UHGV virus genome: UHGV-1343268
Strand: one strand, 5' to 3'
DNA length: 17,098 bases
Source: a virus
The position numbers and the translations under genes are program-made. Under the pieces are notes generated by a model, which did no database searches, was not told the DNA's origin, and saw only the letters and a list, made by a program, of their open reading frames with translations. Positions 1-15,692 of the stretch are shown here, one piece after another; the stretch's first letter is position 1, and every line of letters starts with the position of its first letter.

Positions 1-27
1 AAAATCAAAGCAATAAGCAGTGTCGTG

Positions 28-50
28 AAACCACCTTCGGGTGGTTTTTT
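28..50 (+). terminator. Rho-independent terminator-like hairpin, possibly the 3' end of a gene or sRNA upstream of the window
   Basis: Seen in sequence: 8-bp stem AAACCACC (28-35) / GGTGGTTT (40-47), TTCG loop, followed by a T-run to position 50. The transcript it would terminate is not identified. Confidence 0.45.
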
Positions 51-522
51 CGTATTTGTATTTTGTGCAATGGCGGTAGAGTGGCGATGGTGTGGCGATA
101 TGCAGAAACAATGGTAGTGCACGTGCTGTTTAAACTCTAAGGATGAAGCAGAATTCTTCTGCAGCTCCTCCGTATTTCGCATAGTGAACCAGGACCTCTG
201 TTAAACAAAAATTTTTCTGGGATTTTTTCACTCGACTTCATTTTTCCTCCTGCAATCCACCAACAGGTACCTGCGCTAATCTATCTTTTTAATCTGACAA
301 CATCTTGGGAAAAGGCAAATTCGTCAGATTTACTGTTTTTCTGCTGCCTCGAATGCCGATGTCTGAAGCGCTGATAAGAGTTCTATCTCTTTGATATAGA
401 TCTTTTTTTTGATGAATTGCACGACATATTATCGTTATGACACCTTCTTGTTAAAGGTATTGTACTCCTCATCTCGATTTTATGATGTGGGCTATGATTG
501 GTTAGTAATAGAGTGTATCGGT

Positions 523-804
523 ATGCGATGTGGTTTATTAATGGCAATCTGCCTTTGTTTAGTATCTTTTAGTGGATATGCAGCAACAGGAAAGTCTGAT
601 GCTCAGATCAAAAAAGAAATAATTAAAGAATCCATTGAATCTTATCCAGGCAATTGTGCGTGTCCTTATAATCATGCAAGGAATGGTAGTAGATGTGGTG
701 GACGCAGTGCATATAGCCGTAATGGAGGGTATGACGTGGTATGTTATGAGGGTGATGTTACCGATGAAATGATCCGGCAATGGAAGCAGGAGAATGCTGA
801 GTAA
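523..804 (+). CDS. Small Cys-rich exported protein of unknown function (about 93 aa)
   Basis: The supplied ORF runs 409..804; an internal ATG at 523 gives MRCGLLMAICLCLVSFSGYAA-TGKSD, a classic signal peptide (basic n-region, hydrophobic core, AxA-like cleavage site). The mature part is Cys-rich (CACPYNHARNGSRCGG). AT-rich codon usage. Start choice is inferred, not verified. Confidence 0.5.
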   Translation: MRCGLLMAICLCLVSFSGYAATGKSDAQIKKEIIKESIESYPGNCACPYNHARNGSRCGGRSAYSRNGGYDVVCYEGDVTDEMIRQWKQENAE

Positions 805-869
805 TCTCTTTTAACAGGTTTGTTGTGCGAGCATTATGTGCCGTTAACGGTACACTAGCTAGTGATTGT

Positions 870-910
870 TCCAAAAAGAAAACCCGCAGTTCTTACGCTG
901 CGGGTTTGTT
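870..910. terminator. Bidirectional intrinsic terminator between convergent genes
   Basis: Perfect 7-bp stem CCCGCAG (883-889) / CTGCGGG (898-904) with an 8-nt loop; A-run upstream (AAAAAGAAAA) and T-run downstream, so the minus-strand reading is hairpin plus TTTTCTTTTT. Sits between the stop of the 523..804 CDS and the hok-like ORF. Confidence 0.6.
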
Positions 911-992
911 GTTCATGTCTGTGAGATAGGGTGCCACTTCAGCCAACCTTAGCAACCGATTGACGGGGGATTGCTCCCCCGTCGCGGTTTCC

Positions 993-1133
993 TTACTGCT
1001 TACACTGTAAGAACGCCGCAAACTCCGCTCCCCAGAAGCTCATCCGTATTTCACACAGCGAACCGTGTAGCATCCAGATGATGAGGATTACCGTCACGCA
1101 GAACGTGATGGCTGTAAGCGATTTTTGCGACAT
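993..1133 (-). CDS. hok: Hok/Gef-family type I toxin-like small membrane peptide (46 aa)
   Basis: Manual minus-strand translation from ATG (complement of 1131-1133) to TAA (993-995): MSQKSLTAITFCVTVILIIWMLHGSLCEIRMSFWGAEFAAFLQCKQ. One hydrophobic transmembrane segment followed by SLCEIR and AAF, which match my recollection of the Hok/Gef signature (Hok has KSLCEIR...EVAAF). Below the 60-aa cutoff of the supplied ORF track. Confidence 0.6.
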   Translation of the reverse strand: MSQKSLTAITFCVTVILIIWMLHGSLCEIRMSFWGAEFAAFLQCKQ

Positions 1134-1323
1134 AGCGCTTGCTCCTTTGTTGGAGAGGCGCTAACCTATCACTTGCTTAAGGTAGATATGTTAGGGCCTC
1201 GGTTAAACAGAAATGTTTTCCGGGGCCTTTCCACATCCGGCCTTCGGGTATTCCTCCGACCATCAGCCGAAAGGCACCCGCGGGTAATCTATCGTTTTTT
1301 TGTTACTCCGGCAATTCTGCCTG

Positions 1324-1584
1324 TTAATTCTGAGGTAAAGGCAAACTCATCTGATTGTTTCCCCTGTGTGAAGCTGGCAGCTCATGCCACGGGATACCTT
1401 CCGAAGAGTGAACGCCGGAGGCGTGTTTTGATGTGAATTTATGGAAAGCTTCCAGTGTTGAGAAGCATACGCCGCATTCCAGGTTGTTACACTGGTAATA
1501 CTTTTGCCGCACAGTGTTTGAATCGTTTTCCGGACGACTGGTGCGGATTCGGGCAGATGCGCCACAAAGCGGACAACGGAACAT
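1324..1584 (-). CDS. ogr: Ogr/Delta-family zinc-finger late-gene transcriptional activator
   Basis: N-terminus MFRCPLCGASARIRTSR...YYQCNNLECGVCF has the C-x2-C...C-x4-C arrangement and MF-CPLC start recalled for P2 Ogr. Strong SD (AAGGGAGG) 5 nt upstream of the ATG at 1584. Lies downstream of D as in P2. At 86 aa it is longer than P2 Ogr (72 aa). Confidence 0.8.
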   Translation of the reverse strand: MFRCPLCGASARIRTSRPENDSNTVRQKYYQCNNLECGVCFSTLEAFHKFTSKHASGVHSSEGIPWHELPASHRGNNQMSLPLPQN

Positions 1585-1873
1585 AGCGACCTCCCTTAAC
1601 GTGGTGCTGCCGCTATTCTAAGTTGTAATAGCTCAGACTCCAACTGACAGTTTGCGCAGCCAGAATACAATCAAACCTAGCGGTACGCTTTGTGCGAAGA
1701 GCGGAAGTTCGCAACTCCAACAACTTTGATAACCTCCGCATAAATGGAAATCGGTTGCTTACATAAGTTTATTGGCTGAGGTGCATATCGGGAAGCAAGC
1801 GGGCAGTGCCATCTTATCTGTTACAATCCCGAAATGATTGTTCAGCCCGCTTTTTCTAACAGCATGTAAACAT

Positions 1874-3013
1874 TCAGCTGCAAATTTCGTTGTTGCTGCA
1901 TGTTATCTCTTCAAGTGCAGCGGCGTTATAATCAACGGAATGATCAACCTGTGATGTAGGTATGCCAAAAAATTCAACCCCTGACATAATCATGTTGCCG
2001 ATATTCTCTCGCTGTTTATCACTGAGCCTGTCCCACCACTCAGGGGATGAATATGTATTTTCGGCCTTTGTGAAGAAAAAATACAGAAGGGTATTGAACA
2101 TCCTGTTAGCTGGGATCTTAATTAGTGTCCGTATAAAACGTCTGATAATTGTTGAAGTTCTCAGCCAACTGAACACTACATATCCCTTACCTCCGCAGGA
2201 AAAAGCATTGAAACATACTTGTTCCGCCGACACTGTAAGATCGCTCAAATCCTGAATTTTGGTCCCATCGAAATCCCTCTCCGGTGAAAGAATTGACGAA
2301 ACTACAATTGGTAAAGGCTCTGCAAAAGTGAAGATAACACTTTCAATTTCTGAAAATTGCCTGCTAAGTAGGATGCGGTCGAGGCTAGTTTTAAGATTAT
2401 TTAATTCAATTATTGCTGCATTTAAGCCACTTTGGTGCTGGTCGATTAATTTCTGAATATAATACTGTTCAACTTGTAGCTTTCCTTTATCGGCATTTTT
2501 AGCAAAATCAGAAGATAGCACTCCCCCTTCTTTGGCATAAATTTCTTTAGACAATGAACGAAACATTAAGGCAAAGCACTGCTCGTCCGTGCCTGTAAAT
2601 TTTTCGTTCTCTAGGCATGAAAATAAGATTCTGTCATGAACTGCACAAAATCCTGTAAAAGTGGATGCCTGATTGATACCGATCTTCTCGGGAAGCCATT
2701 TTCCGTTGTTTCTCATCAGGCTTGCTAAGTTCATTATCACCCCCATGACGTGATTGCTGGAGTCGGCGATCGCCTTAAGGCTACTGCTCTTAGATATCGT
2801 ATGCGCCTGAACGATGCGTTTATCACAATCTTCGTGCATGGATGCTGGCGCATAACATGCCTTTCTCTGCGAGAGAGACTTTGAAAATTTCAGTGCCTCG
2901 GCTTTGGATACCGGAGTTTCACGATCTCGACCAAGATGGCACTTTTTATACTTAAGTCCTGAATTACACCAGCACTTATCATTTCTTCCTAATTTCACTT
3001 TATTGTTTCCCAC
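1874..3013 (-). CDS. Cargo protein with N-terminal SEC-C-type zinc-binding motif, function unknown (about 379 aa); candidate accessory or defence gene
   Basis: ORF on the same strand as D and ogr and inserted between them. N-terminus KCWCNSGLKYKKCH matches the SEC-C metal-binding motif (C-x-C-x8-C-H). Markedly AT-rich compared with the flanking phage genes. The annotated start is a GTG with no clear SD; an in-frame GTG five codons downstream (MKLGRND...) is an alternative. The remainder of the protein has no domain I can name. Confidence 0.7.
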   Translation of the reverse strand: MGNNKVKLGRNDKCWCNSGLKYKKCHLGRDRETPVSKAEALKFSKSLSQRKACYAPASMHEDCDKRIVQAHTISKSSSLKAIADSSNHVMGVIMNLASLMRNNGKWLPEKIGINQASTFTGFCAVHDRILFSCLENEKFTGTDEQCFALMFRSLSKEIYAKEGGVLSSDFAKNADKGKLQVEQYYIQKLIDQHQSGLNAAIIELNNLKTSLDRILLSRQFSEIESVIFTFAEPLPIVVSSILSPERDFDGTKIQDLSDLTVSAEQVCFNAFSCGGKGYVVFSWLRTSTIIRRFIRTLIKIPANRMFNTLLYFFFTKAENTYSSPEWWDRLSDKQRENIGNMIMSGVEFFGIPTSQVDHSVDYNAAALEEITCSNNEICS

Positions 3014-3412
3014 GAAATTAATGTTCTATAACAAAAACACTTATCGAAAATAGGTGTAATTTATCACTCCGGCAGCTAAAAGATCATCTGCCACATGCAC
3101 GATAATAAATCTTCCTTGCGTCATCATCTCCCTCTGTTCTTAAATCAGGTGTTGCCTGTGTGCGGAGGATTCGCGAAGTACAGTAGCCGAAATGCATGAT
3201 CTTACCCATCAATGGTGAGCACGCGATAATAAGTGAGTCCCTAATTGACCACTCATGGCAATACAACTTCAACCAGCATTCATGACCACTATCCGTGGAT
3301 TAACTGTTACATAAGCAACACCTGCTCTAGGCACAAAGCGGGCTGCCAGATTGGGTCTGGCACTGTGCTGTGAGTGTGTCAGTTCTGGTTTGAGTCAATA
3401 CATCTAATTTGC

Positions 3413-4513
3413 TCATTCTGTTTCTGCTATCCATTCCGGGATTTTTGCTTCAAGCTCAAGCTGTGTGGTAAAGCCGCTGTTATCAATGGTGTGCTCGGCT
3501 TTTGCAATAATCCAGTCCTGATTATCGATGTCACTTTTGAAGCCTGTCACCGTGCCATGCATTTCGGGATAGAGTTCTGCGCGTCCACGCGCCAGCGTGA
3601 TGGAGAATGATGCGGCTCCGCGTTGTAGCTGCTGCCACTTTGCCGCCGCTGCACGTCTTGCTGCCTGCTCGTTCTGATAAGTCTTGCGTAACACAAACAC
3701 GTTGCCTTCCGCACCTTCCATATAGTCACCTTCACGGCTGCTGCTTTTCTCCTTTTTCGGTTTGCGGCGTTTCACGCTGACTTTTTTCTTTTTCCCGTAA
3801 TTAAGATCAAGCCAGTAAGCACGTACCCCCGTATACGCTTCGCGGTCAGCAATGCGGAACTGATGGCGATCGCCACTGCTGCGCGTGATGGCGAACGATG
3901 GCAACGGCTGGCCCTGTGCGTTCACGCCACCGCCTGGCATGATGAATAACAGATTACTGCTTTTTACCGTAGTGATTGCGCCCAGCATTTCCGCCATGCG
4001 CGTAAGGAAGGACATGTCGCTTTCTTCGGTCTGGTCGGCGTGGTCGATTTCAATATCCATCAGCATTTCGCTGATTTGTGGTTTCAGACCGTACCGATGA
4101 GCGATGGCGGATACCACGCGCTCAACGGTCACATCATGCCAGGACACCTCACGTTTAACGTTAAATTCATCCCGAAAATCTGCGCTTCTGGCTGAAACAG
4201 TCAGCCTGTCCGGCGGTCCTTCGTGAGCGATTTCATCAACAATGTAAGTGCCTTTTTCTGTCAGCGGTTCTCCTTTCCAGCCAATGAGAACCGTCAGGCG
4301 CGCGCCCCGTGGCGGTAGCTGCAACTGACCATCCGCATCATCCAGCGTGATGGTGAGCAGGTCCGCTTCAAATCCCCGGTTGTCGGTCAGTGACAGGCTC
4401 ATCAGGCGCTCTGCCACGCCGGACAGTGTTTCCCCCTCCGCGAGAATATCAAAATCCGGCATTTTCACGGGGTCTGTGCTCTGACTGAGCAATTGCATGG
4501 TGGTATCGGTCAT
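3413..4513 (-). CDS. D: P2 gpD-like tail protein (late control D family)
   Basis: Supplied ORF 3413..4645; the likely start is the internal ATG at 4513 (MTDTTMQLLSQ...) preceded by GGGAGGGA. Length (about 366 aa) and sequence character are consistent with the gpD family; position next to ogr matches P2 synteny. Confidence 0.88.
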   Translation of the reverse strand: MTDTTMQLLSQSTDPVKMPDFDILAEGETLSGVAERLMSLSLTDNRGFEADLLTITLDDADGQLQLPPRGARLTVLIGWKGEPLTEKGTYIVDEIAHEGPPDRLTVSARSADFRDEFNVKREVSWHDVTVERVVSAIAHRYGLKPQISEMLMDIEIDHADQTEESDMSFLTRMAEMLGAITTVKSSNLLFIMPGGGVNAQGQPLPSFAITRSSGDRHQFRIADREAYTGVRAYWLDLNYGKKKKVSVKRRKPKKEKSSSREGDYMEGAEGNVFVLRKTYQNEQAARRAAAAKWQQLQRGAASFSITLARGRAELYPEMHGTVTGFKSDIDNQDWIIAKAEHTIDNSGFTTQLELEAKIPEWIAETE

Positions 4514-4670
4514 CTGTTCCCTCCCTGTGCGGCATGGTCGCATGTGCGTGCATAGGGGGTTACTGCTTTTTGTTGTCGCCGTGGCGGGAGAACGGCGCAG
4601 GGGAGAGATTACGCGCGTGGTGGGTGATGATTGTTGCCGAATCATTTAACGGATACAAGGGGCTGAAGCT

Positions 4671-5855
4671 ATGAGTGAAACTCGTTTTCATGGTGCCCGT
4701 GTTACGGAAAGTACCGACCTGGTAACAGCGATTAATGATGTTGATTCCAGTGTTATCGGTATCGTGGCAACGGCGGATGATGCGGACGCGGAGCTGTTCC
4801 CGCTGAACAAGCCCACACTGCTGACCCGCGTCAATGACGTGCTGGGAAAATGCGGGACTACGGGGACGCTTTATCGTGCGCTTAAGGCTATTGCAGACCA
4901 GGTGAGCACAAAAGTGATCGTCGTTCGCGTGGCTGAACACAAAGAAGAAGGCGGTAAGACGCAGGATCAACTGGTTATCGGTGGTTCTGAATCTGACGGC
5001 AGCTATACGGGGATGTATGCGCTGCTTGTTGCAGAGCAGGATGAAAGCATCGGATACCGTCCGCGTATTCTGGCCGCGCCGGAGCTGGACACGGAGGCGG
5101 TGACAAAATCCCTGTGCGTGATTGCGGGTAAACTGCGCGCGTTTGTGTATGCCTCATGTCATGACTGTAACACGATGGCTGAGGCAATTACCTACCGCCA
5201 GAAATTCAACGAACGTGAGGTGATGCTCTTATGGCCGGACTTCATCGCCTACAACCCGAAAAGTGGCAAAAACGAAACGTTCCCCGCGCCTGCCTATGCG
5301 TGCGGCCTTCGTGCGTACATTGACCATGAGCAGGGCTGGCACAAATCGCTGTCCAACGTTCCTGTTAAAAATGTGCTGGGGATGTCCAGGCATGTTTTCT
5401 GGTCGTTGCAGGCCGAAGACAGTGATGCCAACAGCCTCAACAACAAAGAAATCACGACCATTATTCGTCGCAACGGGTTCCGCTTCTGGGGCAACCGCAC
5501 ACCGGAAACGAACGCCTACATCTTTGAGGTGTATACCCGAACCGCACAGGTGCTGGCTGATTCAATTGCGGAAGCGCAGTTTGAAACCATCGACAGTCCA
5601 CTGACGCCTGCGAACGTGAAGGATGTTATCAGTGCCATCAGGGCAAAACTGGATTCGCTGGTTACTGCCGGGAAACTGATTGGCGCGGAGTGCTGGTATG
5701 ACGTGGTGGATAACAGCACCACGGATTTACGTCAGGGGCGTGTGCGTATTCGCTACAAATATACGCCCGTTCCGCCACTGGAAGACATGGAGCTTTACCA
5801 GACGTTTACTGATGAATACTTTGAACCCGCATTTGCGGTGCTGGGAGGTGCCTGA
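4671..5855 (+). CDS. FI: Contractile tail sheath protein (P2 gpFI-like)
   Basis: 394 aa. Shares recalled gpFI motifs: DADAE-FPLNKP near the N-terminus, LRAF, WPDF, EQGWHK-LSNV, RRNGFRFWGNRT, YTRTAQV, YKYTPVPPLE. SD AAGGGG 8 nt upstream of the ATG. Confidence 0.93.
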   Translation: MSETRFHGARVTESTDLVTAINDVDSSVIGIVATADDADAELFPLNKPTLLTRVNDVLGKCGTTGTLYRALKAIADQVSTKVIVVRVAEHKEEGGKTQDQLVIGGSESDGSYTGMYALLVAEQDESIGYRPRILAAPELDTEAVTKSLCVIAGKLRAFVYASCHDCNTMAEAITYRQKFNEREVMLLWPDFIAYNPKSGKNETFPAPAYACGLRAYIDHEQGWHKSLSNVPVKNVLGMSRHVFWSLQAEDSDANSLNNKEITTIIRRNGFRFWGNRTPETNAYIFEVYTRTAQVLADSIAEAQFETIDSPLTPANVKDVISAIRAKLDSLVTAGKLIGAECWYDVVDNSTTDLRQGRVRIRYKYTPVPPLEDMELYQTFTDEYFEPAFAVLGGA

Positions 5856-6367
5856 TGGCTGTACCAAAACATCTTCGCTTTTTTACGCTGTTTGTGGATG
5901 GTGAAAACGAAGTGGGTAAGGTGACGTCCGTCACTCTGCCTAAGCTGACGCGCAAAACCGACAGCTACCGGGGTGGTGGCATGATGGGTGCGGTAAGTAT
6001 TGATCTCGGTCTGGACGACTCCGCGCTTGATGCGAGCTTTGTCATGGGGGGCGCAGTTCGTGAGCTGTTCCTTAAGTATGGCGGCACGATTGACGGCACG
6101 CTGCTGCGTTTTGCGGGTGAATATTACACCGATGCAGAAAGCGACCTGTATGAAGTCGAAATGCGCGGACGTGTGACGGAAATTGATATGGGGGAAGCCA
6201 AACAGGGCGAAGCCACATCACACACTTACGCCATTAAAAACACCTACTACAAGCTGAGTGTTAACGATCGCCCGTTGTGGGAGATTGACCTGCTGAACTT
6301 CATTTACCGGAAGGACGGCAAGGACATTGTGCCCGATCGCATCCGTTCCGCGCTCGGGCTTGGCTGA
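5855..6367 (+). CDS. FII: Tail tube protein (P2 gpFII-like)
   Basis: 170 aa. Start overlaps the FI stop (TGATG) with GGGAGGTG as SD. Has the LPKLTRK...YRGGGM motif recalled for gpFII. Sits immediately after the sheath gene as in P2. Confidence 0.9.
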   Translation: MAVPKHLRFFTLFVDGENEVGKVTSVTLPKLTRKTDSYRGGGMMGAVSIDLGLDDSALDASFVMGGAVRELFLKYGGTIDGTLLRFAGEYYTDAESDLYEVEMRGRVTEIDMGEAKQGEATSHTYAIKNTYYKLSVNDRPLWEIDLLNFIYRKDGKDIVPDRIRSALGLG

Positions 6368-6421
6368 TAAGTAATATGCAGGCGGCGCAGTGCGTCGCCT
6401 CTGACTGAAAGGAGTTTCCTG

Positions 6422-6787
6422 ATGAAAGAGACGAAAAACATCGATACCGAAAACACGGTAGTTGCTGACACTGTGAAAGAAACCAGTGAGCGTGGTGTAA
6501 AACTTACCCAACCAATTGAGCGAGGCGGCGAAAAAATCACGTATGTGGAGATCACCGGGGCTATTGAGCAGGCTGGATCTCTGCGAGATTTGTCGCTGTC
6601 TGATGTGCTGAATCTGAAAGCGGAATCCATGTTTACGCTGCTGTCACGCGTGACATCACCGCGACTGGATGAAGTGACGATCAAAAAAATGGCATCCCGT
6701 GACTTTATTCAGTTATGTGTGGTTGCCGTAAATTTTTTGAGCGGTGCGGACTCTGGCGGGAAGAACGAACAGGCGACGGAAGCCTGA
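6422..6787 (+). CDS. E: Tail assembly chaperone (P2 gpE-like), zero-frame product
   Basis: 121-aa ORF with SD AAAGGAG, placed between the tube and tape-measure genes. Contains the slippery site TTTTTTG at 6733-6739. Confidence 0.85.
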   Translation: MKETKNIDTENTVVADTVKETSERGVKLTQPIERGGEKITYVEITGAIEQAGSLRDLSLSDVLNLKAESMFTLLSRVTSPRLDEVTIKKMASRDFIQLCVVAVNFLSGADSGGKNEQATEA

Positions 6788-6951
6788 TCACGGTTGTGTG
6801 CTTTGAGCACATAGAAGACTTTGTGGCAGATATTGCCGTTATTTTTAACTGGTCGCCCGCCGAAATCTTCATGATGACGCCCGGCGAAGTGGTTAGCTGG
6901 CGTGAGCGGGCGGCACTTCGCAGCGGGAATGCAGACAATGAAGACTCTTGA
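6422..6951 (+). CDS. E': gpE+E' fusion chaperone made by programmed -1 ribosomal frameshift
   Basis: The overlapping ORF 6715..6951 is in the -1 frame relative to E (start coordinates 6422 and 6715 differ by one in frame) and has no plausible start of its own. The heptamer T6G at 6733-6739 sits in the overlap. This matches the conserved E/E' frameshift of P2 and the analogous lambda G/GT. The E' ORF ends where T begins. Confidence 0.75.
6733..6739 (+). promoter_or_regulatory. Slippery heptamer TTTTTTG for the -1 programmed frameshift E to E'
   Basis: Seen in sequence, in the E/E' overlap with the correct frame relationship. Confidence 0.7.
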
Positions 6952-9745
6952 TATCCGGGTCGCTTTCAGCGCCGTTGACAGGCTGACCCGGCCTGCCGAA
7001 AACGCCCGCCGCCTGATGGGGCAGTTTGGTGACTCCATCCAGCGAACGCAGGGGGCGATTAAAAATCTCGAGCGTCAGGCTCGTTCATTTGAGCGCGCCC
7101 GCGACGCTGTCAGTAAAGCGGATGCGGGTATCGTGAAAGCACGACGCCAGCTTAACGCCCTTAATCAGTTACAACGCACGGGTACAGTGCTCAGCGAAAA
7201 ACAACAAAAGCTGATGCAGCAGTTAAGCACCCGGCTTGAACGCCTGAATGAATCGCGCACACGGGAAATTCAGAAAATGCGGGAGCTTGGCGGAGAGCTG
7301 AAACGCCACGGCATTTCCCTGACAGGCAGCGATAACACCATCCAGCAGGCCATCAGACGCACCGAACAGTACAACAACCAGCTTGAACGCGAACGGCAGG
7401 CGCTTGCGCGTGTAACGCGGGCGCGTGAGTGGTATTCGCGCGCGCAGGAAACCGCGGGAAAACTGAAAACAGGTGGTGCGCTGGCAATTGGTGCGGCAGC
7501 GGCGGGCGGCTATGCTGCCGGGCGTTTTTTGCAGCCCGCGATCGGGTTCGGCAAAGAGATGTCCCGCGTTCAGGCGCTGACGCGAATCGACCAGAACAGC
7601 CCGCAGTTTAAGGCGCTGCGTGAGCAGGCGTTAAAACTTGGCTCTGAAACGCAGTTCACCGCAGGCGATGCCGCCAGTGGGCAGGCATTTCTTGCAATGG
7701 CAGGCTTCACACCGCAGGCCATTCAGGCTGCGCTTCCCGGAGTGCTGAGCATGGCAACGGCTGGCGGTATGGATCTCGGCGAGACGGCAGATATTGGCTC
7801 AAATATCCTGACGCAGTTCGGCCTTTCTGCTGACCAGATGGACCGGGTCGGTGACACACTCACCGCAGCGTTTACCCGTACCAACACTGACCTTCGCGCA
7901 CTGGGCGAAACCATGAAATATGCAGGTCCGGTGGCGGGTAAGCTGGGAATATCGCTGGAGCAGGCCGCAGCGATGGCTGGTGTGCTGGCGAATATGGGCA
8001 TCAGAGGGAGTGATGCCGGGACGGCAATGCGTGCCAGCCTGGCTCGTCTGGCATCACCGCCAAAGGCGGCGGCAGAAGCTCTGAAAGAGCTGGGCGTGTC
8101 CGTCTCGGATGCCGGGGGTAAAATGCGCCCGATGGAGGATGTGCTGGCCGACCTTTATAAAGCCACCCGCAAATACGGGGAAGTTGACCGGGTATCGTTC
8201 TTTAAGGACATTGCCGGAGAAGAGGCTTTCACATCGTTTATGGCGCTCGTTGATGCAGTGGGTGACGGTTCCTTACCCAAACTGAGAAAAGAACTTGAAG
8301 GCGCGCGCGGTGAGGCTGAACGCACAGCAAAGGTTATGGCCAACAACCTTGACGGCGATCTGAAATCACTCGGCAGTGCATGGGAAGGGTTGCGCATCCG
8401 CATTGCAGATCTGATTGACGGTCCGCTGCGTTCTGTCACGCAGTGGCTCACGCGGGTGGTATCAAGGGTGACGGCGCTGGCGCAGGCCCATCCGGCACTG
8501 ACGCGCCAGCTACTGATAGCAGGCGGTGCGTTGCTGGCAATGACTGCAACGGTTGGCTCGTTGTCGCTGGCTATTGGTGTGCTTGCTGGTCCGCTGGCAA
8601 AACTGCGTCTTGGTTTTTCTCTCCTGACCGGATCAATGAATGCTGTCAGGGTCCTGCCAGCACTATGGGGAATGGTGACGGGTTCCGTTTCTTTACTGGG
8701 AGGCGCTATCGGGGCGCTGTTCAGTCCGGTTGGTCTTATCGTGGCTGCGCTTGCCGGAGCTGCCGTCCTTATCTGGAAATACTGGGATCCCATCAGGGCA
8801 TTTTTTGCCGGGGTGTTCAGCGGGATTATGGAAAGGCTGAACCCGTTGCGTGAAACCTTTGAACGGTTTGGCCCTGTTTTTGACGCAATCGGAAGCGGGA
8901 TCAGCCAGGTGTTTAACTGGTTTAAATCGCTGCTGTCACCGATGGAGTCCAGCAAGGAAACGCTGGATAAATGTACCAGTGCTGGCGAGATATTCGGTAA
9001 CGTTCTTGGCGGTGCGTTACAACTTGTTCTGACACCTGCAAAAATGCTACTGGATACGCTGGCGTGGATACTTGAAAAACTTGGCGTCCTTCCGGATGAA
9101 GCGGAAAGGGCGCGCAAGAAAATCGAAGACGCACAGCGTGCGGCCATTCTTCAGGATAAGGTTGCCTTACTTCAGGGGGACCTGGCGAAAATCAATCCGC
9201 CGAAGCCTGTGGAAAATGGCAATGGCACCGGAGGTGATAAACCCAAAGACAACAAACCGCTCACAGACAGCAATACCGGGACGCTACGCAGACTCAGCAA
9301 AATTGCTGATAACACAGGTAAGCTGGTTGATGAGACGAAAAAACGCATTGGCCCTGGCGATATTGTCTTTAAGAACCTGCCCCGCGCACTTGCTGTTCGT
9401 GGGGAGTGGCAGGAGCGGAAGATTGCGCAGGTCAGTAAGCCTGCCCCCGCAATTAATATCACACCCGTAGTCCCGGCTCCGCTGCCTCCGGCGCTGGTCC
9501 CTGTTGTTGCGGCCAGCTCCCGCCCGGTGGCGGAGGCCATACGATCGCCAGTGGCATCAGTTCCTGCAGCTTCCCGTAATCGGGAGCCTGCTGTCTCCAG
9601 ATTTGGCGGTGAAATTCATGTTCATCTGCATAACGTTGTTACGCAGAATCCCCGCGAACTGGCGAAACTGGTCGGTGAAATGGTCAGGGCAGAAATGGAA
9701 CGGCGCGCCCGTGCCGGGCGTGGCAGTTTTTACGATAAAGATTGA
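6938..9745 (+). CDS. T: Tail tape measure protein (P2 gpT-like)
   Basis: Very long ORF (supplied as 6902..9745, 947 aa). Coiled-coil-rich N-terminal half, hydrophobic Gly/Ala-rich segments in the middle, located directly after E/E'. Start is uncertain among GTG 6902, ATG 6929 and ATG 6938; 6938 is chosen because GGGA lies about 9 nt upstream. Confidence 0.9.
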   Translation: MKTLDIRVAFSAVDRLTRPAENARRLMGQFGDSIQRTQGAIKNLERQARSFERARDAVSKADAGIVKARRQLNALNQLQRTGTVLSEKQQKLMQQLSTRLERLNESRTREIQKMRELGGELKRHGISLTGSDNTIQQAIRRTEQYNNQLERERQALARVTRAREWYSRAQETAGKLKTGGALAIGAAAAGGYAAGRFLQPAIGFGKEMSRVQALTRIDQNSPQFKALREQALKLGSETQFTAGDAASGQAFLAMAGFTPQAIQAALPGVLSMATAGGMDLGETADIGSNILTQFGLSADQMDRVGDTLTAAFTRTNTDLRALGETMKYAGPVAGKLGISLEQAAAMAGVLANMGIRGSDAGTAMRASLARLASPPKAAAEALKELGVSVSDAGGKMRPMEDVLADLYKATRKYGEVDRVSFFKDIAGEEAFTSFMALVDAVGDGSLPKLRKELEGARGEAERTAKVMANNLDGDLKSLGSAWEGLRIRIADLIDGPLRSVTQWLTRVVSRVTALAQAHPALTRQLLIAGGALLAMTATVGSLSLAIGVLAGPLAKLRLGFSLLTGSMNAVRVLPALWGMVTGSVSLLGGAIGALFSPVGLIVAALAGAAVLIWKYWDPIRAFFAGVFSGIMERLNPLRETFERFGPVFDAIGSGISQVFNWFKSLLSPMESSKETLDKCTSAGEIFGNVLGGALQLVLTPAKMLLDTLAWILEKLGVLPDEAERARKKIEDAQRAAILQDKVALLQGDLAKINPPKPVENGNGTGGDKPKDNKPLTDSNTGTLRRLSKIADNTGKLVDETKKRIGPGDIVFKNLPRALAVRGEWQERKIAQVSKPAPAINITPVVPAPLPPALVPVVAASSRPVAEAIRSPVASVPAASRNREPAVSRFGGEIHVHLHNVVTQNPRELAKLVGEMVRAEMERRARAGRGSFYDKD

Positions 9746-9751
9746 GGAGTC

Positions 9752-10246
9752 ATGGCCATGATGATGATCTACGGCATGTTTGTTTTTGAGCTGCGCACGT
9801 TGCCGCATCAGCAGTTACAGCAAAATAAAAGCTGGCGGCATGTGAAAAATGAACGCGTTAACCGTTCAGCAAGCTGGCAGTATATCGGGGCAGGCGATGA
9901 TCGCATCGTTCTTTCTGGTGTGCTTTATCCTGAAATTACAGGTGGCGAAGTGTCGCTTTCGTTGCTGACCACGCAGGCATATACAGGACGCCCCTGGCCT
10001 CTGATTGATGGTGTCGGGCAGATTTACGGCATGTATGTACTGACTGAAACGAATACGACCCGCTCCGAGTTTGATCGCTACGGTAAGGCGAAAAAGATAG
10101 AATTTTCACTGACTCTTGAACGCTGTGATGAGGATTTGCGGGAGCGCCTGCAATCCTCATCGTTCAGCGATATGTTGTCCGGCTTCAAAGATAAGGTGAC
10201 ATCATCCCTTAATAGCGCGGCCAGCTCAGTTAAGGGGCTGCTCTGA
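9752..10246 (+). CDS. U: Tail protein U (P2 gpU-like)
   Basis: 164 aa, SD GAGGAG, immediately downstream of T. Size and position match P2 gpU. Confidence 0.82.
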   Translation: MAMMMIYGMFVFELRTLPHQQLQQNKSWRHVKNERVNRSASWQYIGAGDDRIVLSGVLYPEITGGEVSLSLLTTQAYTGRPWPLIDGVGQIYGMYVLTETNTTRSEFDRYGKAKKIEFSLTLERCDEDLRERLQSSSFSDMLSGFKDKVTSSLNSAASSVKGLL

Positions 10247-10322
10247 TTTAACGTATGTCGCCAATTTCCTGATGAAGGTGACTGGCGACTTGCTGTTGTA
10301 TGTCCTTCTCAGAAAATTGTTT

Positions 10323-10351
10323 TTGAATAACAAACAACAGGATTTTATAAT
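10323..10351 (+). promoter_or_regulatory. Near-consensus sigma70 promoter for the acetyltransferase cargo gene
   Basis: TTGAAT (10323-10328), 17-nt spacer, TATAAT (10346-10351), in an AT-rich intergenic region about 50 nt upstream of the cargo gene SD. Confidence 0.6.
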
Positions 10352-10402
10352 CTCTTAACCTTATAACATGTGTGGTCTGAAATAATAATTAAGGAGATTA
10401 TC

Positions 10403-10975
10403 GTGCTGTCTTACCTAATGGCAATTCACTTTGTTTTATTTGGGAACTCTACTAATTTAAAAAACTTCTGGAAACATGAAGTAATTCGGCGGAAACGTAT
10501 GGATATCTGGAGGCTTTTAAGAGAGAAAAAGCAGCGTAACAGGAATTTCCTTTTCTGGTGGCGGTTGGCTAACGAAATGTATATTAATGGTAATAAATTA
10601 CATAAGAAAGCAGCCAAGAAGTTAAACAGTAAAATAATTAACAAATTTGGTTGCGAAATTGGATTGGGCGCAAATATTGGAAAAGGGTTAACAATTCCCC
10701 ATCATGCTGGAATTGTTGTTCATTTTGCTGTTGATGCTGGTGAAAATCTGGTGTTACGACAGAATACGACCATTGGACAGATAGATGGTGACATACCTGG
10801 TTCAAGAGTAAAAATTGGTAGCAACGTTGATATCGGAGCTAATTGTTGCATCATTGGATTATCCCGTAAAATTGGGGATAATGTAAAAATAGGTGCAATG
10901 TCTTTTATAAATAAAGATATACCATCGAACTGCACATATATAACTAAAAAGAGCGGTGCTGTATTGTATAAATAG
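10403..10975 (+). CDS. Hexapeptide-repeat acyltransferase, serine-O-acetyltransferase (CysE/WcaB)-like; cargo gene
   Basis: The C-terminal half carries repeated [LIV]-G-x-x-x-x hexapeptide units (IGLGANIGKGLTI, KIGSNVDIGANCCIIG, KIGDNVKIGAMSFI) resembling the left-handed beta-helix of CysE-type acetyltransferases. Strongly AT-rich. SD AAGGAG (10391-10396) precedes an in-frame GTG at 10403; the ATG at 10418 is an alternative start. The supplied ORF begins at GTG 10370. Confidence 0.78.
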   Translation: MLSYLMAIHFVLFGNSTNLKNFWKHEVIRRKRMDIWRLLREKKQRNRNFLFWWRLANEMYINGNKLHKKAAKKLNSKIINKFGCEIGLGANIGKGLTIPHHAGIVVHFAVDAGENLVLRQNTTIGQIDGDIPGSRVKIGSNVDIGANCCIIGLSRKIGDNVKIGAMSFINKDIPSNCTYITKKSGAVLYK

Positions 10976-10984
10976 AGTACATAA

Positions 10985-11020
10985 AGCCATCGATATTTCT
11001 ATCGATGGCTTTTTCTTTTT
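10985..11020. terminator. Strong intrinsic terminator between the convergent acetyltransferase and tfa genes
   Basis: Perfect 11-bp stem AGCCATCGATA (10985-10995) / TATCGATGGCT (11000-11010), loop TTTC, then TTTTCTTTTT. The T-run overlaps the tfa stop codon. Confidence 0.75.
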
Positions 11021-11597
11021 ATTGTGGGGCGACTGGCCACTCAATATCTGCTGCTACTGTTGTATCAACACGATGCAACAATACTCGATATGTCTTCCAT
11101 GCAGCCAGTAACGATGTCTCTTCCTCCGTCGCAATATCTAAATCTATAGCATCCTGAAGTGGTGCAATATGCTCACTGGCTACCTGCATCAGGCTGTTTT
11201 TTGTTTCTTCCGCCTCCCTTATCCGAAATAGTTTTTCTGCTTCTGCATCTTTCACCCAGGATGTGCCGTTCCACTTCTGATACTCTCCATACGGCGACAA
11301 CCAGGTAACATTTTCCGGTAATGGACCGAGTTCAGAAATAAATAACGAGTCCCCTGATGCCACGTCATAAACCGTTTTACCCCGATGGTCTTCAACGAGA
11401 TGCCACGATGCCTCATCACTGTTGAAAACGGCCACGAAGCCAGCCGGAATATCTGGCGGGGCAATATCGGTACTGTTTGCAGGCAGACCTGTATGAGGTG
11501 GAATGTATGCATCACCTTCACCAATAAACTCATTGGTTCCGGTCAGTAGATTATAAATTTTTATGGTCCGTGAGTGTTCACTCATTCTGAATGTCAT
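11019..11597 (-). CDS. tfa: Tail fibre assembly chaperone (lambda Tfa / P2 gpG class)
   Basis: 192 aa. C-terminal [30 protein letters not shown] resembles the conserved Tfa C-terminus. The start ATG overlaps the tail-fibre stop (TAATG), indicating translational coupling. Confidence 0.85.
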
Positions 11598-13916
11598 TAT
11601 GCAAGCCTCACAATATAGTTAAATGCGATGTTTTTTACGGTGTTTTCTTTGTTACCCGTAGCGTTAACGGTGATGGTGTGTCCGTGGGGACCAATAATGA
11701 CAGAATGGGCATGAGCACCAATGCCGATAGTGTGGTTATGGGCACCGATATATACATTGTGAGCATGCCCGCCTGCGCTCGACGTGGTACCAGTACCTAA
11801 CGCAGCGTTATAACCGGCTGATACACCATTCCCCGCGCCAGTGTGACCAACAGGTATATTGTGTGAATGATTTCCAGCGCTATTCGTAGTTTTTGTGCCG
11901 TAATCAAATGAACTGGTCGTTTTAGTACCGTAATCAAACGACGATGTGGTTTTCGTCCCCAAATCCGTACTGGATGCGCTGGCGCTGTGGGTGTGCGATT
12001 TAATGCCGTCCTGTTCCTGAGACAATACGGCACGACCACTGCCGGGCTTGCCCTTAATCGTCCAGCCACGCATATCAGGAATAACGCCTGACGGATAAGC
12101 GACTGCAAGTTTCGGGTATGCAGATTTGTCAAAAGTCTGCCCCTGCATCAGGGCATAGCCAGACGGAACGGTATCTGATGGCCACGGGATTGGTGCACCG
12201 ACTGGATAAAACTCTGCAGGAGGATGAGCCGAGGTGTAAAGCTGCGCCCACGGCGACCAGTTTGCGTCGGTCGTATCCCGTCGTGAACGAATAAATGCCG
12301 GAGCATGAGCACCGCTTGTACCACTCCAGCCGATGAGTAACTCACCTTCGCCAACGGCTGTCATCCCTTTCAGGTGAATGATATTTCCATACGCTGTTGG
12401 ATATCCGTTGTTATACACCTCGTATAACTCAAGACCTGTTGCCCCCTGCGTATTGTCTGTCAGCGCGGTTACCCGACCTTTTGAAGACAGATTAACTGAT
12501 GATACTGCTGTTCCACCTGACGGTAATGCCCCGATCTCTGATGCCGTTGGCTTATTTCTGGAGTTATAGTCCCTTCGCCAGCCAGGTGAATAATCTGNNN
12601 NNNNNNNNNNNNNNNNNNNNNNNNNNNNNNNNNNNNNNNNNNNNNNNNNNNNNNNNNNNNAATGCGGATCGTCATCGCTGACTTTATCCCCATTACTTCA
12701 ATGACAGCTCCTGCGAGATGAATATTACCGCAGCCAGTATCAGTAATGATTTTATTATTGCCATAAGACCAGGAACCCTTGCACATCCAGTATGGATGGT
12801 TAAATGCTCCCTGAGAATCCAGCCACTCGATAAACTGTGCAGTCGTCCAGTCTCCTGTTGTTGTGCTTACTGACCCACCGAAGGCACGGCTGGCACCAAT
12901 ATTTTTCGTAAAGGTGTCTTTGCCAGGGATATCCGCACCGTTCTTATCTTTCTGCAGACGTTTCTCAGCATTGTCATTGGCTGCTTTTACTGCCTTTGGC
13001 GTTGCTGCCAGCGTTTCAGACGTGCTGTTGGTCGCGCTGCTTAGCTGGACTATCCCTTTCTGTGCTGTCGTTGCATCCTGTGCGGTGTATTTCCCGTCAG
13101 CCAGGTCATACGCGGCCTTAACTGCTTTTGGCGTTGCCGCCAGCGTTTCAGACGTGCTGTTGGTCGCGCTGCTTAGCTGGACTATCCCTTTCTGTGCTGT
13201 CGTTGCATCCTGTGCGGTGTATTTCCCGTCAGCCAGGTCATACGCGGCCTTAACTGCTTTTGGCGTTGCCGCCAGCGTTTCAGANNNNNNNNNNCAGCCA
13301 GGTCATACGCGGCCTTAACTGCTTTTGGCGTTGCCGCCAGCGTTTCAGAATCGCTGTTAGTGGCGCTACTGAGTTGAACAAAGCCTTTTGCGGTCAGCGA
13401 GGCATCCGGGTGACATCGTGACTGTTCATGCTCTTTCAGTTTGTTATCCACGTAATCCACTGTGGCCATCACCATGGTGTTATCCACGGTAAGCGCCACA
13501 GTGGCAGTGCTGGATACGGTCAGAATGGTGCGAAATGTTTGTGCACGTCCGGACCCTTCGGCAACGGCTGGCTTGTAACTTTCGGCAGTATTGCCCACCG
13601 CGATTAAATCGCCGTGCTCATCAAACACACCAATTTCCCGGATCCAGAATCCGCCCGTTTCTGGAGGAATAACCAGCTCCGCAATAATGCGGTTCTGATG
13701 TGTTGCGTCCAGGATGACGCGATTAACAGTGTGTCGCCACACCTCATGCACCAGACGGGTCTGCTTACTGTCTGGTGTGGGCAACGCGCCGCCACCGTCG
13801 CCCACGGCCATATGAGTCAGGCGGACAGGCTTACCATCTGGCGCGGCTGCCTGAGCTAATTTTTTGGCACCTGTATCGGTGATAACGGTTTTAAATTTTC
13901 GTGTTGTGGTACTCAT
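11597..13916 (-). CDS. H: Mosaic tail fibre protein (P2 gpH-like N-terminus, lambda Stf-like C-terminus); interrupted by two N-runs
   Basis: N-terminal ORF (13916 downward) [24 protein letters not shown]...HEVWRH...[15 protein letters not shown]...[13 protein letters not shown]...[20 protein letters not shown] matches the gpH N-terminal baseplate-attachment region as I recall it. C-terminal segment ...[34 protein letters not shown]...HxH repeats...[11 protein letters not shown] matches the lambda Stf-type tip. By manual translation the frame is continuous from the 12598-12660 gap to the stop at 11597. True length and frame across the gaps cannot be determined. Confidence 0.82.
12598..12660. 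other. Run of 63 ambiguous bases (N), assembly gap or masked segment inside the tail fibre gene
   Basis: Seen in sequence. Confidence 0.95.
12981..13400. repeat. Tandem 132-bp direct repeats (44-aa coding units) inside the tail fibre gene
   Basis: Units 13021-13152 and 13153-13284 appear identical on reading. Diverged partial copies flank them (about 12981-13020 and 13295-13400). The 10-N run at 13285-13294 replaces roughly 77 nt of a unit. On the coding strand the unit encodes ...[44 protein letters not shown]... Confidence 0.9.
13285..13294. other. Run of 10 ambiguous bases (N) inside the tandem-repeat array, probably a collapsed-repeat gap
   Basis: Seen in sequence; the flanking sequence shows repeat phase is not preserved across the N-run. 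Confidence 0.95.
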
Positions 13917-13918
13917 GC

Positions 13919-15338: not shown

Positions 15339-15341
15339 GAT

Positions 15342-15692
15342 TTACTCCCTCAGCGTGATGGTTAACTCAACATTCTGCATGGTCTGCATGACAGTGCCCG
15401 ACAGCGTCACCCCGGCGCGGCCTCCCGCTTTCCAGACAACGTCGATGGCATCCAGGGCAATGCGGGGTTCCCATCGTGTCAGCGCAATCACGGCAGCACT
15501 CATGCATTGCAGACGCGTGGTGTTATTCATGGGTTCGTCAATCAAATCAGGCACAAGGCTGCCATATTCCCGTCGCATAACCCGGCTGGCCAGCGGGGTG
15601 GTCAGGATGTCCCTGACTGACTGTTTCAGGTGCTCCGTATCGTTCAGGTTTCCCGTCCCGTCCGGATTCATTCCTGTGTAGCGGGTTGTCAC
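15342..15692 (-). CDS. W: Baseplate wedge protein W (P2 gpW / T4 gp25-like)
   Basis: 116 aa, size and position (V then W then J) as in P2. Start overlaps the V stop (ATGA). Confidence 0.85.
   Translation of the reverse strand: MTTRYTGMNPDGTGNLNDTEHLKQSVRDILTTPLASRVMRREYGSLVPDLIDEPMNNTTRLQCMSAAVIALTRWEPRIALDAIDVVWKAGGRAGVTLSGTVMQTMQNVELTITLRE

What the first reader, a model, noticed from the sequence alone, without database searches (positions are those of the whole stretch)
870..1323. Hok/Gef-like type I toxin locus immediately downstream of ogr
A 46-aa ORF (993..1133, minus strand), missed by the 60-aa ORF track, has the hydrophobic helix and SLCEIR...AAF signature of Hok-family toxins. A strong intrinsic terminator lies about 90 nt downstream of its stop, and the GC-rich, palindrome-dense 1134-1320 region upstream is the right size for the structured hok mRNA leader that would carry an overlapping mok frame and an antisense Sok RNA on the plus strand. 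If the 5' end is near 1300, the total predicted transcript is about 400 nt, similar to hok mRNAs. A type I toxin-antitoxin at the prophage end could stabilise the prophage or contribute to abortive infection.
Basis: partly seen in the sequence, partly recalled or inferred. Interest (0 to 1): 0.55.

Follow-up and report, generated by a model that had tools for sequence, protein, structure and literature searches.

The report
Hok-family toxin–antitoxin cassette on P2-like prophage
The small gene next to ogr is a real, conserved Hok-type membrane-toxin gene with the folded mRNA and antisense-RNA layout of a hok/sok toxin–antitoxin module, but databases already annotate it as Hok/Gef, so it is an ordinary member of a well-known family.

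Summary
The 46-codon ORF at 993-1133 (-) passes Pfam HOK_GEF (30.1 bits; gathering score 22) and phrog_251 "MokW-like host killing" (82.8 bits). RefSeq annotates it as a Hok/Gef family protein (WP_000078920.1). Phage P88 annotates its 97.5%-identical locus the same way.

A module of about 440 bp (873-1314) has these hok-locus RNA features:
- a promoter giving a 5' end at 1279;
- a 5' GGGUGCC (tac) that pairs with GGCACCC at 929-935 (fbi);
- a mutually exclusive local 5' hairpin;
- a sequestered hok SD and start codon;
- a terminator at 880-907;
- on the plus strand, an invariant promoter-like site and hairpin where SokB and SokC lie in K-12.

Homologous modules occur in 1755 of 5426 complete E. 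coli genomes. In 17 diverse copies the ORF is intact, with dN/dS 0-0.5.

Two caveats:
- The Rfam sok model hits with E = 7e-9 but below its gathering score (46.7 bits against 59).
- There is no mok frame overlapping hok. The upstream ORF stops 43 nt before the hok AUG.

Toxicity and the antisense RNA were not tested.

Verdict: correct but already known; low interest.

The parts
1286..1314 (-). hok promoter: -35 TTGCCG (1314..1309), 17-nt spacer, -10 TAGATT (1291..1286)
   Evidence: Read from the sequence. Homology among loci in unrelated contexts begins exactly at the TTGC of the -35. The -10 varies only as TAGATT/TACATT/TAAATT/TACAGT. It matches 8 of 12 consensus positions, below the scan tool's cut-off, so one search did not list it.
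872..1279 (-). Predicted full-length hok mRNA, about 408 nt
   Evidence: The 5' end is inferred from the -10 spacing and from position 1 of the Rfam model. The 3' end is inferred from the terminator. Fold -175 kcal/mol, z -7.2. Not mapped experimentally.
1265..1279 (-). tac-like 5' element (GGGUGCC at 1279..1273, plus an extension to 1265)
   Evidence: It pairs with 929-944 in the MFE fold and in the 17-sequence consensus. The core is invariant. The extension stays paired in 93% of cells.
1246..1261 (-). Local partner of tac (ucb-like), forming the alternative 5' hairpin
   Evidence: When the 3' end is removed, tac refolds onto this segment. This hairpin is paired in 97.6% of cells across 17 loci, against 34-60% when the partners are slid.
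1177..1236 (-). Upstream ORF of 19 codons (MWKGPGKHFCLTEALTYLP), a truncated mok-like frame. GAAGG lies at 1245..1241 and the stop UAA at 1179..1177.
   Evidence: The AUG and GAAGG are conserved in 16 of 17 loci, but ORF length ranges from 1 to 79 codons and it overlaps hok in only 3 of 17.
1139..1167 (+). Predicted sok promoter: -35 TTGCTC (1139-1144), 17-nt spacer, -10 TAACCT (1162-1167)
   Evidence: Same geometry as R1 (TTGCGC, 17 nt, TATCCT) and hokC. The TTGC and the whole TAACCT are invariant in 17 loci. It matches only 6 of 12 consensus positions and one search did not list it.
1174..1232 (+). Predicted Sok-like antisense RNA, about 58 nt: a single-stranded 5' tail, then a GC-rich hairpin (1193-1229) and UUUCC
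   Evidence: Fold -22.9 kcal/mol, z -3.6. It is complementary to mRNA positions +48 to +106. The annotated SokC and SokB cover +44 to +102 and +43 to +99 of their mRNAs. No expression data.
1142..1145 (-). hok Shine-Dalgarno GGAG, 8 nt before the AUG
   Evidence: Read from the sequence. In the consensus structure it is paired with CUCC in a local hairpin (columns 121-131 with 138-149, 96.5% of cells paired).
993..1133 (-). hok coding sequence, 46 aa plus stop
   Evidence: Pfam PF01848 above the gathering score. phrog_251. RefSeq WP_000078920.1, Hok/Gef family protein. Under purifying selection.
962..983 (-). 3'-UTR hairpin (GACGGGGGAG...CCCCCGUC)
   Evidence: Helix 16 of the consensus: 4 of its 9 pairs show compensatory changes and 98.7% of cells are paired.
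929..944 (-). fbi-like 3' element (GGCACCC at 935..929, plus an extension at 944..939)
   Evidence: It pairs with the 5' end. The extension differs between loci yet still pairs, for example GGCUGAAG, GGUCGAUA, AUCGUA.
873..907 (-). Intrinsic terminator: stem 907..880 then a U run. It is bidirectional and also lies 3' of the plus-strand ORF 523-804.
   Evidence: Window 873 is also the left limit of homology with phage P88.

Best explanation
Window 873-1314 is an intact hok/sok-type type I toxin-antitoxin cassette. It is carried as accessory cargo between ogr and the leuZ attachment site of a P88-like (P2-family) prophage of E. coli.

Shown by sequence analysis:
- A 46-aa Hok-family peptide is encoded: an N-terminal membrane helix plus a C-terminal part with both cysteines hard-coded, as in HokA.
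- It sits on a roughly 408-nt mRNA whose 5' end (tac) pairs with a 3' element (fbi).
- tac can instead form a local 5' hairpin.
- The hok SD and AUG are buried in conserved helices.

Inferred by analogy with R1 hok/sok:
- The full-length RNA is translationally inert.
- Slow 3' trimming removes fbi, and the 5' end refolds.
- A short-lived antisense RNA of about 58 nt, made from the plus strand (about 1174-1232), pairs with the leader of the refolded mRNA and triggers its decay. Hok is then made only when the antisense RNA runs out.

Difference from R1: there is no mok frame reaching the hok start. Coupling must therefore be weaker, partial (through the 19-codon upstream ORF whose SD-like GAAGG is freed by the refolding), or absent.

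Biological role is not resolved. The most likely roles are retention of the prophage or cassette, or help with lysis on induction, as shown for hokW-sokW.
For: - Family hits: Pfam HOK_GEF 30.1 bits against 22; phrog_251 82.8 bits; the best NCBIfam hit is HokA.
- Conserved residues: all seven residues reported as more than 80% conserved in Hok (M1 C16 T18 L30 C31 E32 E41, preprint 10.1101/2025.08.07.668861) align with M1 C12 T14 L26 C27 E28 E37 here.
- Existing annotation: RefSeq and phage P88 already label it Hok/Gef.
- Rfam: the RF01794 match at 1279..1123 has E 7e-9. The positive controls hokC, hokB and R1 hit on the same (sense) strand.
- RNA structure: tac/fbi pairing appears in the MFE fold and in the 17-sequence consensus. 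97.1% of cells are paired against about 40% when slid, and 14 pairs show compensatory changes. The alternative 5' hairpin is also conserved.
- ORF conservation: intact in 17 of 17 loci, dN/dS 0-0.5.
- Distribution: homologous modules in 1755 of 5426 E. coli genomes, in several unrelated prophage contexts. The module boundaries fall at the -35 hexamer and the terminator.
- Sok: the promoter geometry and antisense position match R1, sokC and sokB.
- Internal contrast: a truly decayed copy lies in the same window at 126-300.
Against: - No transcript, toxicity or antitoxin data exist for this locus.
- The Rfam score is below the gathering threshold (46.7 against 59), as it is for the whole subfamily (31-51 bits).
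- The mok-like frame stops 43 nt before the hok AUG. In R1, premature mok stops upstream of hok abolish toxicity (PMC9841398).
- Both predicted promoters are weak matches to consensus (8 of 12 and 6 of 12) and were not called by the scan.
- The tac/fbi core is invariant, so it offers no covariation evidence. The consensus structure was also derived from the same alignment on which it was scored.
- The MFE fold of the 3'-truncated RNA still buries the hok SD.
Confidence: 0.87

Rival explanations
1. The locus is a Hok-family gene that is translationally silenced or attenuated in its native context, a domesticated or decaying TA. The leader ORF needed to open the hok start is truncated, so Hok is rarely or never made from the native transcript.
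For: - The upstream ORF ends 43 nt before the hok AUG in this allele. Only 3 of 17 relatives keep an overlapping frame.
- In R1, stop codons in mok upstream of hok suppress toxicity (PMC9841398).
- The literature reports that chromosomal hokA, hokB and hokC failed to mediate post-segregational killing (summarised in 10.1101/2025.08.07.668861).
- The hok SD stays paired in the fold of the truncated RNA.
Against: - The Hok ORF is intact and under purifying selection in lineages with truncated upstream ORFs, for example dN/dS 0.24-0.28 against L008 and L009.
- Promoters, tac/fbi, the SD and the terminator are all conserved.
- A really decayed copy, with a 128-nt deletion, lies 0.7 kb away and looks very different.
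- hok has its own GGAG at good spacing from the AUG.
Confidence: 0.2
2. The cassette's main role is to help the phage, as hokW-sokW does: Hok is released on SOS induction and speeds lysis and phage release. On this view it does not act as an addiction or abortive-infection module.
For: - hokW-sokW of the Stx prophage Sp5 increases phage release about 2-fold after mitomycin C (PMC8621323).
- hok genes are about 4-fold enriched in prophages (10.1101/2025.08.07.668861).
- The module recurs in several kinds of functional temperate phage: P88, Stx phages and other lambdoid prophages.
Against: - HokW is a different, HokC-like 51-aa peptide.
- Nothing here links this locus to induction.
- P2-family phages are typically not SOS-inducible (general knowledge).
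- R1 hok/sok is documented to act in plasmid maintenance and phage exclusion (cited in PMC8621323).
Confidence: 0.25
3. The ORF is a chance small ORF inside the ogr 3' region or terminator, with no toxin function.
For: ORFs of 46 codons are common by chance: one search lists 53 ORFs of at least 20 aa in the first 3 kb.
Against: - Curated HMM hits.
- Conservation with a codon-position bias in substitutions.
- The same module occurs without ogr in other contexts.
Confidence: 0.01

Closest known systems
hok/sok of plasmid R1 (archetypal type I TA; Pfam PF01848, Rfam RF01794)
   Same: - A small Hok peptide with a membrane helix and the conserved C, T, LCE and E residues.
- An mRNA of about 400 nt with 5' tac and 3' fbi pairing and an alternative 5' hairpin.
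- An antisense promoter with the same -35, 17-nt spacer and -10 geometry next to the GCCUC hairpin.
- An antisense RNA of about 60 nt over the leader.
   Different: - Protein identity is only 12 of 31 aligned residues.
- The peptide is 46 aa, not 52.
- The Rfam score is below the gathering score (46.7 bits against 87 for R1).
- There is no mok start at the R1 position (AUAUC instead of AUAUG) and no frame overlapping hok.
- It is carried on a prophage, not a plasmid.
HokA of E. coli K-12 (NCBIfam NF007290)
   Same: - It is the closest characterised peptide: 17 of 40 residues identical, sharing MxQK...W, SLCE and AAFLxCK.
- Both cysteines are hard-coded, so no TadA recoding is needed (10.1101/2025.08.07.668861).
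   Different: - It scores 35.8 bits against the equivalog cut-off of 89, so it is not a HokA orthologue.
- The K-12 hokA leader is cut by IS150 and its mokA is a pseudogene, so the RNAs cannot be compared.
hokW-sokW of Stx prophage Sp5/933W
   Same: It is a prophage-borne hok/sok module that has been shown experimentally to be a type I TA (PMC8621323). The PHROG family name "MokW-like host killing" covers both.
   Different: - HokW is 51 aa and starts MKQQKAM, which is HokC-like.
- Its leader (GCGGGUGCUUGAGGCUAUCUGCC) is of the canonical Rfam type.
- Stx phages also carry a separate 46-aa copy that is 84% identical in DNA to this locus.
gp52 of Escherichia phage P88 (Xuanwuvirus) and the RefSeq protein WP_000078920.1
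   Same: The protein is identical. The DNA is 97.5% identical over 873-1624, with the same position next to ogr.
   Different: - The RNA parts (Sok, tac/fbi) are not annotated in those records.
- The DNA between the terminator and the att site differs from P88.

Membership tests
Hok/Gef toxin family (Pfam PF01848) | Match to the family HMM at or above the curated gathering score | tested here: met
   30.1 bits against 22, E 3.7e-7, residues 7-44 on profile positions 5-42 of 42. Also phrog_251, 82.8 bits.
Hok/Gef toxin family (Pfam PF01848) | A peptide of about 50 aa with one N-terminal hydrophobic helix | tested here: met
   46 aa. Residues 6-22 have mean Kyte-Doolittle hydropathy 2.58, against 2.66 for R1 Hok.
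Hok/Gef toxin family (Pfam PF01848) | Conserved residues M1, C16, T18, L30, C31, E32, E41 (R1 numbering; 10.1101/2025.08.07.668861) | tested here: met
   All seven align with M1, C12, T14, L26, C27, E28, E37. The second cysteine (position 48 in R1 numbering) is hard-coded as C44.
Hok/Gef toxin family (Pfam PF01848) | Membrane damage or growth arrest on expression | not testable with these tools
42 of 45 diverse Hok homologues were toxic in 10.1101/2025.08.07.668861, but this sequence was not found in the held supplements.
HokA equivalog (NCBIfam NF007290) | Score at or above the curated cut-off | tested here: not met
   35.8 bits against a cut-off of 89. It is the closest clade, but this is not an orthologue.
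hok/sok type I TA locus (R1 paradigm) | Long-distance 5' (tac) to 3' (fbi) pairing in an mRNA of about 400 nt | tested here: met
   GGGUGCC at 1279..1273 pairs with GGCACCC at 935..929, plus an extension. The pairing is kept in the 17-sequence consensus, helices 1 and 2 at 100% and 93% paired.
hok/sok type I TA locus (R1 paradigm) | A mutually exclusive local pairing of tac (metastable or tac/ucb hairpin) | tested here: met
   Predicted once fbi is removed. Paired in 97.6% of cells across 17 loci. This is in silico only.
hok/sok type I TA locus (R1 paradigm) | A mok reading frame that starts in the leader and overlaps the hok start | tested here: not met
   No start codon at the R1/hokC mok position. 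The frame from the conserved AUG at 1236 stops at 1177, 43 nt before the hok AUG. It overlaps hok in only 3 of 17 relatives.
hok/sok type I TA locus (R1 paradigm) | A cis-encoded antisense Sok RNA with its own promoter, complementary to the leader | tested here: inconclusive
   An invariant TTGC, 17-nt spacer and TAACCT, plus a hairpin, lie at the position of the annotated sokB and sokC. The promoter is a weak consensus match, was not found, and there are no expression data.
hok/sok type I TA locus (R1 paradigm) | Match to the Rfam RF01794 (sok/hok leader) covariance model at the gathering score | tested here: not met
   46.7 bits against 59 (E 7e-9, full-length match to model positions 1-157). 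Controls: hokC 118, hokB 110, R1 87 bits. Relatives of this locus score 31-51 bits.
hok/sok type I TA locus (R1 paradigm) | 3' processing that activates the mRNA, and RNase III decay of the Sok-hok duplex | not testable with these tools
   This needs Northern blots or RACE in wild-type and rnc backgrounds.

The most novel reading that the evidence does not exclude
This 46-aa, HokA-like, prophage-borne subfamily may be a natural mok-independent variant of hok/sok. The overlapping leader frame has decayed in most lineages: the upstream ORF is 1-79 codons long and is a bare AUG-UGA in two loci. The toxin ORF, tac/fbi, the SD-burying hairpin and the sok promoter nevertheless stay conserved. Control would then rest on RNA refolding plus antisense-triggered decay, or on initiation at a minimal upstream ORF, rather than on translational coupling. 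The antisense-overlap segment is also the most divergent part (72.5% mean identity). That would fit diversification into non-cross-reacting specificity types among co-resident copies, of which there are up to 9 per genome.
Probability: 0.3. Interest if true: 0.4.

Novelty: already known. Interest (0 to 1): 0.18.

Why it matters
It matters little for discovery. The gene is already named in RefSeq, in PHROGs and in phage P88, and prophage-borne hok loci have been catalogued and one has been characterised.

It has three modest uses:
- It shows that the Rfam gathering score misses this whole Hok subfamily, so the RNA components go unannotated.
- It supplies a natural series of alleles, with the leader ORF from 1 to 79 codons, for testing whether mok coupling is dispensable.
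- It is another case of a TA cassette moving as a discrete module, from promoter to terminator, between P2-like, lambdoid and Stx prophages.

Tried and rejected
- The Rfam search at gathering threshold found nothing in the region. Only the E-value mode showed the sok hit.
- The promoter scan found neither the hok nor the sok promoter, because both fall below its cut-off of 9 of 12. Both were placed by comparison with relatives instead.
- I looked for mok at the R1/hokC position and in both alternative frames and found no usable start or open frame. The 28-aa ORF (1263..1177) and the 21-aa ORF (1234..1169) are not conserved as coding sequence, because indels in that stretch are not multiples of three.
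- The genome-contig scan returned only 6 loci. Three carry non-enterobacterial labels (Planococcaceae, Vagococcus, Xanthomonas) and are probably contamination, so it added little diversity.
- PADLOC has no model that matches the peptide.
- Literature searches for this locus in P88 or next to ogr found nothing specific.
- Neither the peptide nor its accession was found in the held supplements of the Hok catalogue preprint.
- I rejected identity with hokW. That peptide is 51 aa and HokC-like.
- I rejected the idea that the locus lies outside the prophage. The att repeat ends at window 50.

Full report
**1. Where the window comes from**

The first 1700 bases are 100% identical to the E. coli SCU-105 chromosome, immediately after the glyW-cysT-leuZ tRNA genes. 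A 121-bp perfect direct repeat covers the 3' part of tRNA-Leu and its terminator, and its left copy ends at window 50. The second copy lies 37 kb away, just past a phage integrase and next to the chromosomal yecA. Window 51-17098 is therefore inside a P2-family prophage. Its closest sequenced phage is P88 (Xuanwuvirus), 97.5% identical over 873-1624. ogr lies at 1324-1584 (-), Pfam Ogr_Delta 52.4 bits.

**2.

- The ORF at 993-1133 (-) encodes MSQKSLTAITFCVTVILIIWMLHGSLCEIRMSFWGAEFAAFLQCKQ.
- It passes Pfam HOK_GEF (30.1 bits, gathering score 22, E 3.7e-7).
- It matches phrog_251 "MokW-like host killing" over its full length (82.8 bits).
- Its best NCBIfam hit is HokA, but far below the equivalog cut-off (35.8 against 89).
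- Residues 6-22 are as hydrophobic as the R1 Hok helix.
- All seven residues reported as more than 80% conserved among 1264 Hok peptides (preprint 10.1101/2025.08.07.668861) are present. Both cysteines are hard-coded, as in HokA.
- RefSeq annotates the ORF as "Hok/Gef family protein" (WP_000078920.1). P88 annotates it as gp52, "MokW-like host killing".
- The terminator (stem 907..880 plus a U run) lies 85 nt past the stop codon and is bidirectional.

**3. It is a conserved, mobile module**

- A distant BLAST search with 872-1300 finds homologues (74-100% identity) in 1755 of 5426 complete E. coli genomes, up to 9 per genome. All are annotated Hok/Gef.
- The contexts differ: next to ogr in P2-like prophages at several integration sites, between lom/J and tail-fibre genes of lambdoid prophages, in Stx phages, and next to an L31 paralogue.
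- Upstream homology between these contexts begins exactly at a TTGC that fits a -35 hexamer. Downstream it ends at the terminator in most loci. The lambdoid and Stx-phage copies L003, L012 and L013 have a different 3' end.
- In 17 distinct copies, including Salmonella and E. albertii, the ORF is always intact at 46-47 codons. Against the window allele, dN/dS is 0-0.5 and changes concentrate at third codon positions.

**4. RNA anatomy**

- **Promoter and 5' end.** TTGCCG (1314..1309), a 17-nt spacer and TAGATT (1291..1286) place the 5' end at G1279. That is also position 1 of the Rfam match.
- **Long-range pairing.** The 408-nt RNA 1279..872 folds at -175 kcal/mol (z -7.2). The 5' GGGUGCCUUUCGGCU pairs with the 3' GGCUGAAG.UGGCACCC at 944..929. 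This is the tac/fbi arrangement of hok mRNAs as described in PMC9841398.
- **Comparative support.** The RNAalifold consensus of the 17 sequences keeps this pairing. On that structure 97.1% of cells are paired, against 37-45% when the partners are slid. Fourteen pairs show compensatory changes, a count reached by only 2 of 500 shuffles. Two caveats apply: the structure was derived from the same alignment, and the tac/fbi core never varies. The extension does vary in sequence while remaining paired.
- **Alternative 5' hairpin.** Removing the 3' end makes tac refold onto 1261..1246. This alternative hairpin is paired in 97.6% of cells across the loci. Two mutually exclusive conserved pairings of the 5' end are what the R1 model requires.
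- **Buried start signals.** The hok SD (GGAG, 1145..1142) sits in a conserved local hairpin. The AUG region pairs with codons 37-41, and that helix is 100% kept.

**5. The antisense partner**

On the plus strand, TTGCTC (1139-1144), a 17-nt spacer and TAACCT (1162-1167) reproduce the geometry of the R1 sok promoter (TTGCGC, 17 nt, TATCCT) and of hokC. The TTGC and the whole -10 hexamer are invariant in all 17 loci. A start near 1174 followed by the hairpin at 1193-1229 gives an RNA of about 58 nt. It would be complementary to mRNA positions +48 to +106. The annotated SokC and SokB cover +44 to +102 and +43 to +99 of their mRNAs.

This overlap segment is the least conserved part of the module: 72.5% mean pairwise identity, against 86.5% for the adjacent promoter and SD segment. 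That would fit diversified pairing specificity. None of this has been shown experimentally. The promoter matches consensus at only 6 of 12 positions and was not called by the scan.

**6. Rfam**

RF01794 ("sok") models the sense-strand hok leader. hokC, hokB and R1 score 118, 110 and 87 bits on the hok strand. The window scores 46.7 bits (E 7e-9, full model length) and its relatives 31-51 bits, all below the gathering score of 59. This is a divergent subfamily that standard Rfam annotation misses.

**7. The mok problem**

At the position of the R1 and hokC mok start, the window reads AUAUC instead of AUAUG. A conserved AUG (1236..1234) is preceded by GAAGG, a motif that is paired in the full-length fold and freed in the refolded one. 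This AUG opens a frame of only 19 codons, ending at UAA 1179..1177, 43 nt before the hok AUG. Across the 17 loci the frame is 1 to 79 codons long. It overlaps hok in three loci, is AUG-UGA in two, and one locus lacks the AUG. Indels in the stretch are not multiples of three.

In R1, stop codons in mok upstream of hok abolish toxicity (PMC9841398). So either this subfamily does not need mok, or translation of hok is attenuated. Purifying selection on hok in lineages with truncated frames favours the first option. This is an inference.

**8. Function**

The mechanism is inferred by homology. The biological role is open:
- R1 hok/sok maintains plasmids and excludes phage.
- hokW-sokW of prophage Sp5 aids lysis and phage release after mitomycin C (PMC8621323).
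- hok genes are about 4-fold enriched in prophages (10.1101/2025.08.07.668861).

Nothing here discriminates among these roles.

**9. Verdict**

The overlapping mok frame is absent, and the 5' end is at 1279 rather than about 1300. The locus is already annotated and belongs to a thoroughly studied family, so interest is low. The one mildly novel thread is the apparent loss of mok coupling in this subfamily.

Noticed in passing
window 126-300 (-): A second, decayed hok module lies next to the att site. It keeps a recognisable promoter (TTGTCA...TAGATT), a mutated tac (GCAGGUACC) and the Sok-target region. A 128-nt deletion then removes the sok promoter, the SD, the AUG and hok codons 1-23, leaving degenerate codons 24-46. 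The 34-aa ORF at 137-241 with FLFNRGP and GSLCEIR is this fusion. A related prophage (L008) has an intact hok module about 230 nt past the end of the tRNA-Leu gene.
   Followed up: partly
window 1-50, and L024 69-189 with 37379-37499: A 121-bp perfect direct repeat (the last 55 nt of tRNA-Leu leuZ plus its terminator) bounds a 37-kb P2-like prophage. ogr and hok are at the tRNA end and the integrase at the yecA end. Window 1-50/55 is present in 5421 of 5426 E. coli genomes. The stretch from about 55 to 872 is present in only 583.
   Followed up: yes
window 523-804 (+); the longest ORF runs 409-804: A Cys-rich 93-aa hypothetical protein (WP_001303543.1) with a possible signal or membrane segment. 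It matches phrog_27544 (unknown function, 193.7 bits) and weakly a "membrane associated protein" moron family. It is absent from phage P88 at this position and shares the bidirectional terminator with hok.
   Followed up: partly
window 1874-3013 (-): A 379-aa protein with an N-terminal SEC-C metal-binding motif (Pfam 34.4 bits), annotated "YecA family", is inserted between ogr and gene D. It has no PHROG hit, and its only PADLOC hits are weak ones to the SEC-C motif region. P88 lacks it: there the match runs from ogr almost straight into gene D. It is probably a moron or candidate defence gene.
   Followed up: partly
window 11056-11254 (-): A full-length Rfam hit to IS009 (RF02111, 177.2 bits against a gathering score of 117) lies inside the tail-fibre assembly gene (11019-11597).
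   Followed up: no
window 10403-10975 (+): A gene annotated as serine O-acetyltransferase sits between the tail genes and the tail-fibre assembly gene. It is likely another moron.
   Followed up: no
L014, L015, L016 and window 1123-1279: The Rfam family RF01794, named "sok antitoxin", actually matches the sense strand of the hok mRNA leader, from +1 to the hok AUG, in hokC, hokB and R1. Strand calls from this family therefore indicate the hok strand, not the Sok strand.
   Followed up: yes
L017, L018, L021 (genome contigs): Identical or near-identical copies of this E. coli prophage hok module appear in assemblies labelled Planococcaceae MAG, Vagococcus sp. and Xanthomonas pisi. Contamination of those assemblies is the likeliest explanation.
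   Followed up: no
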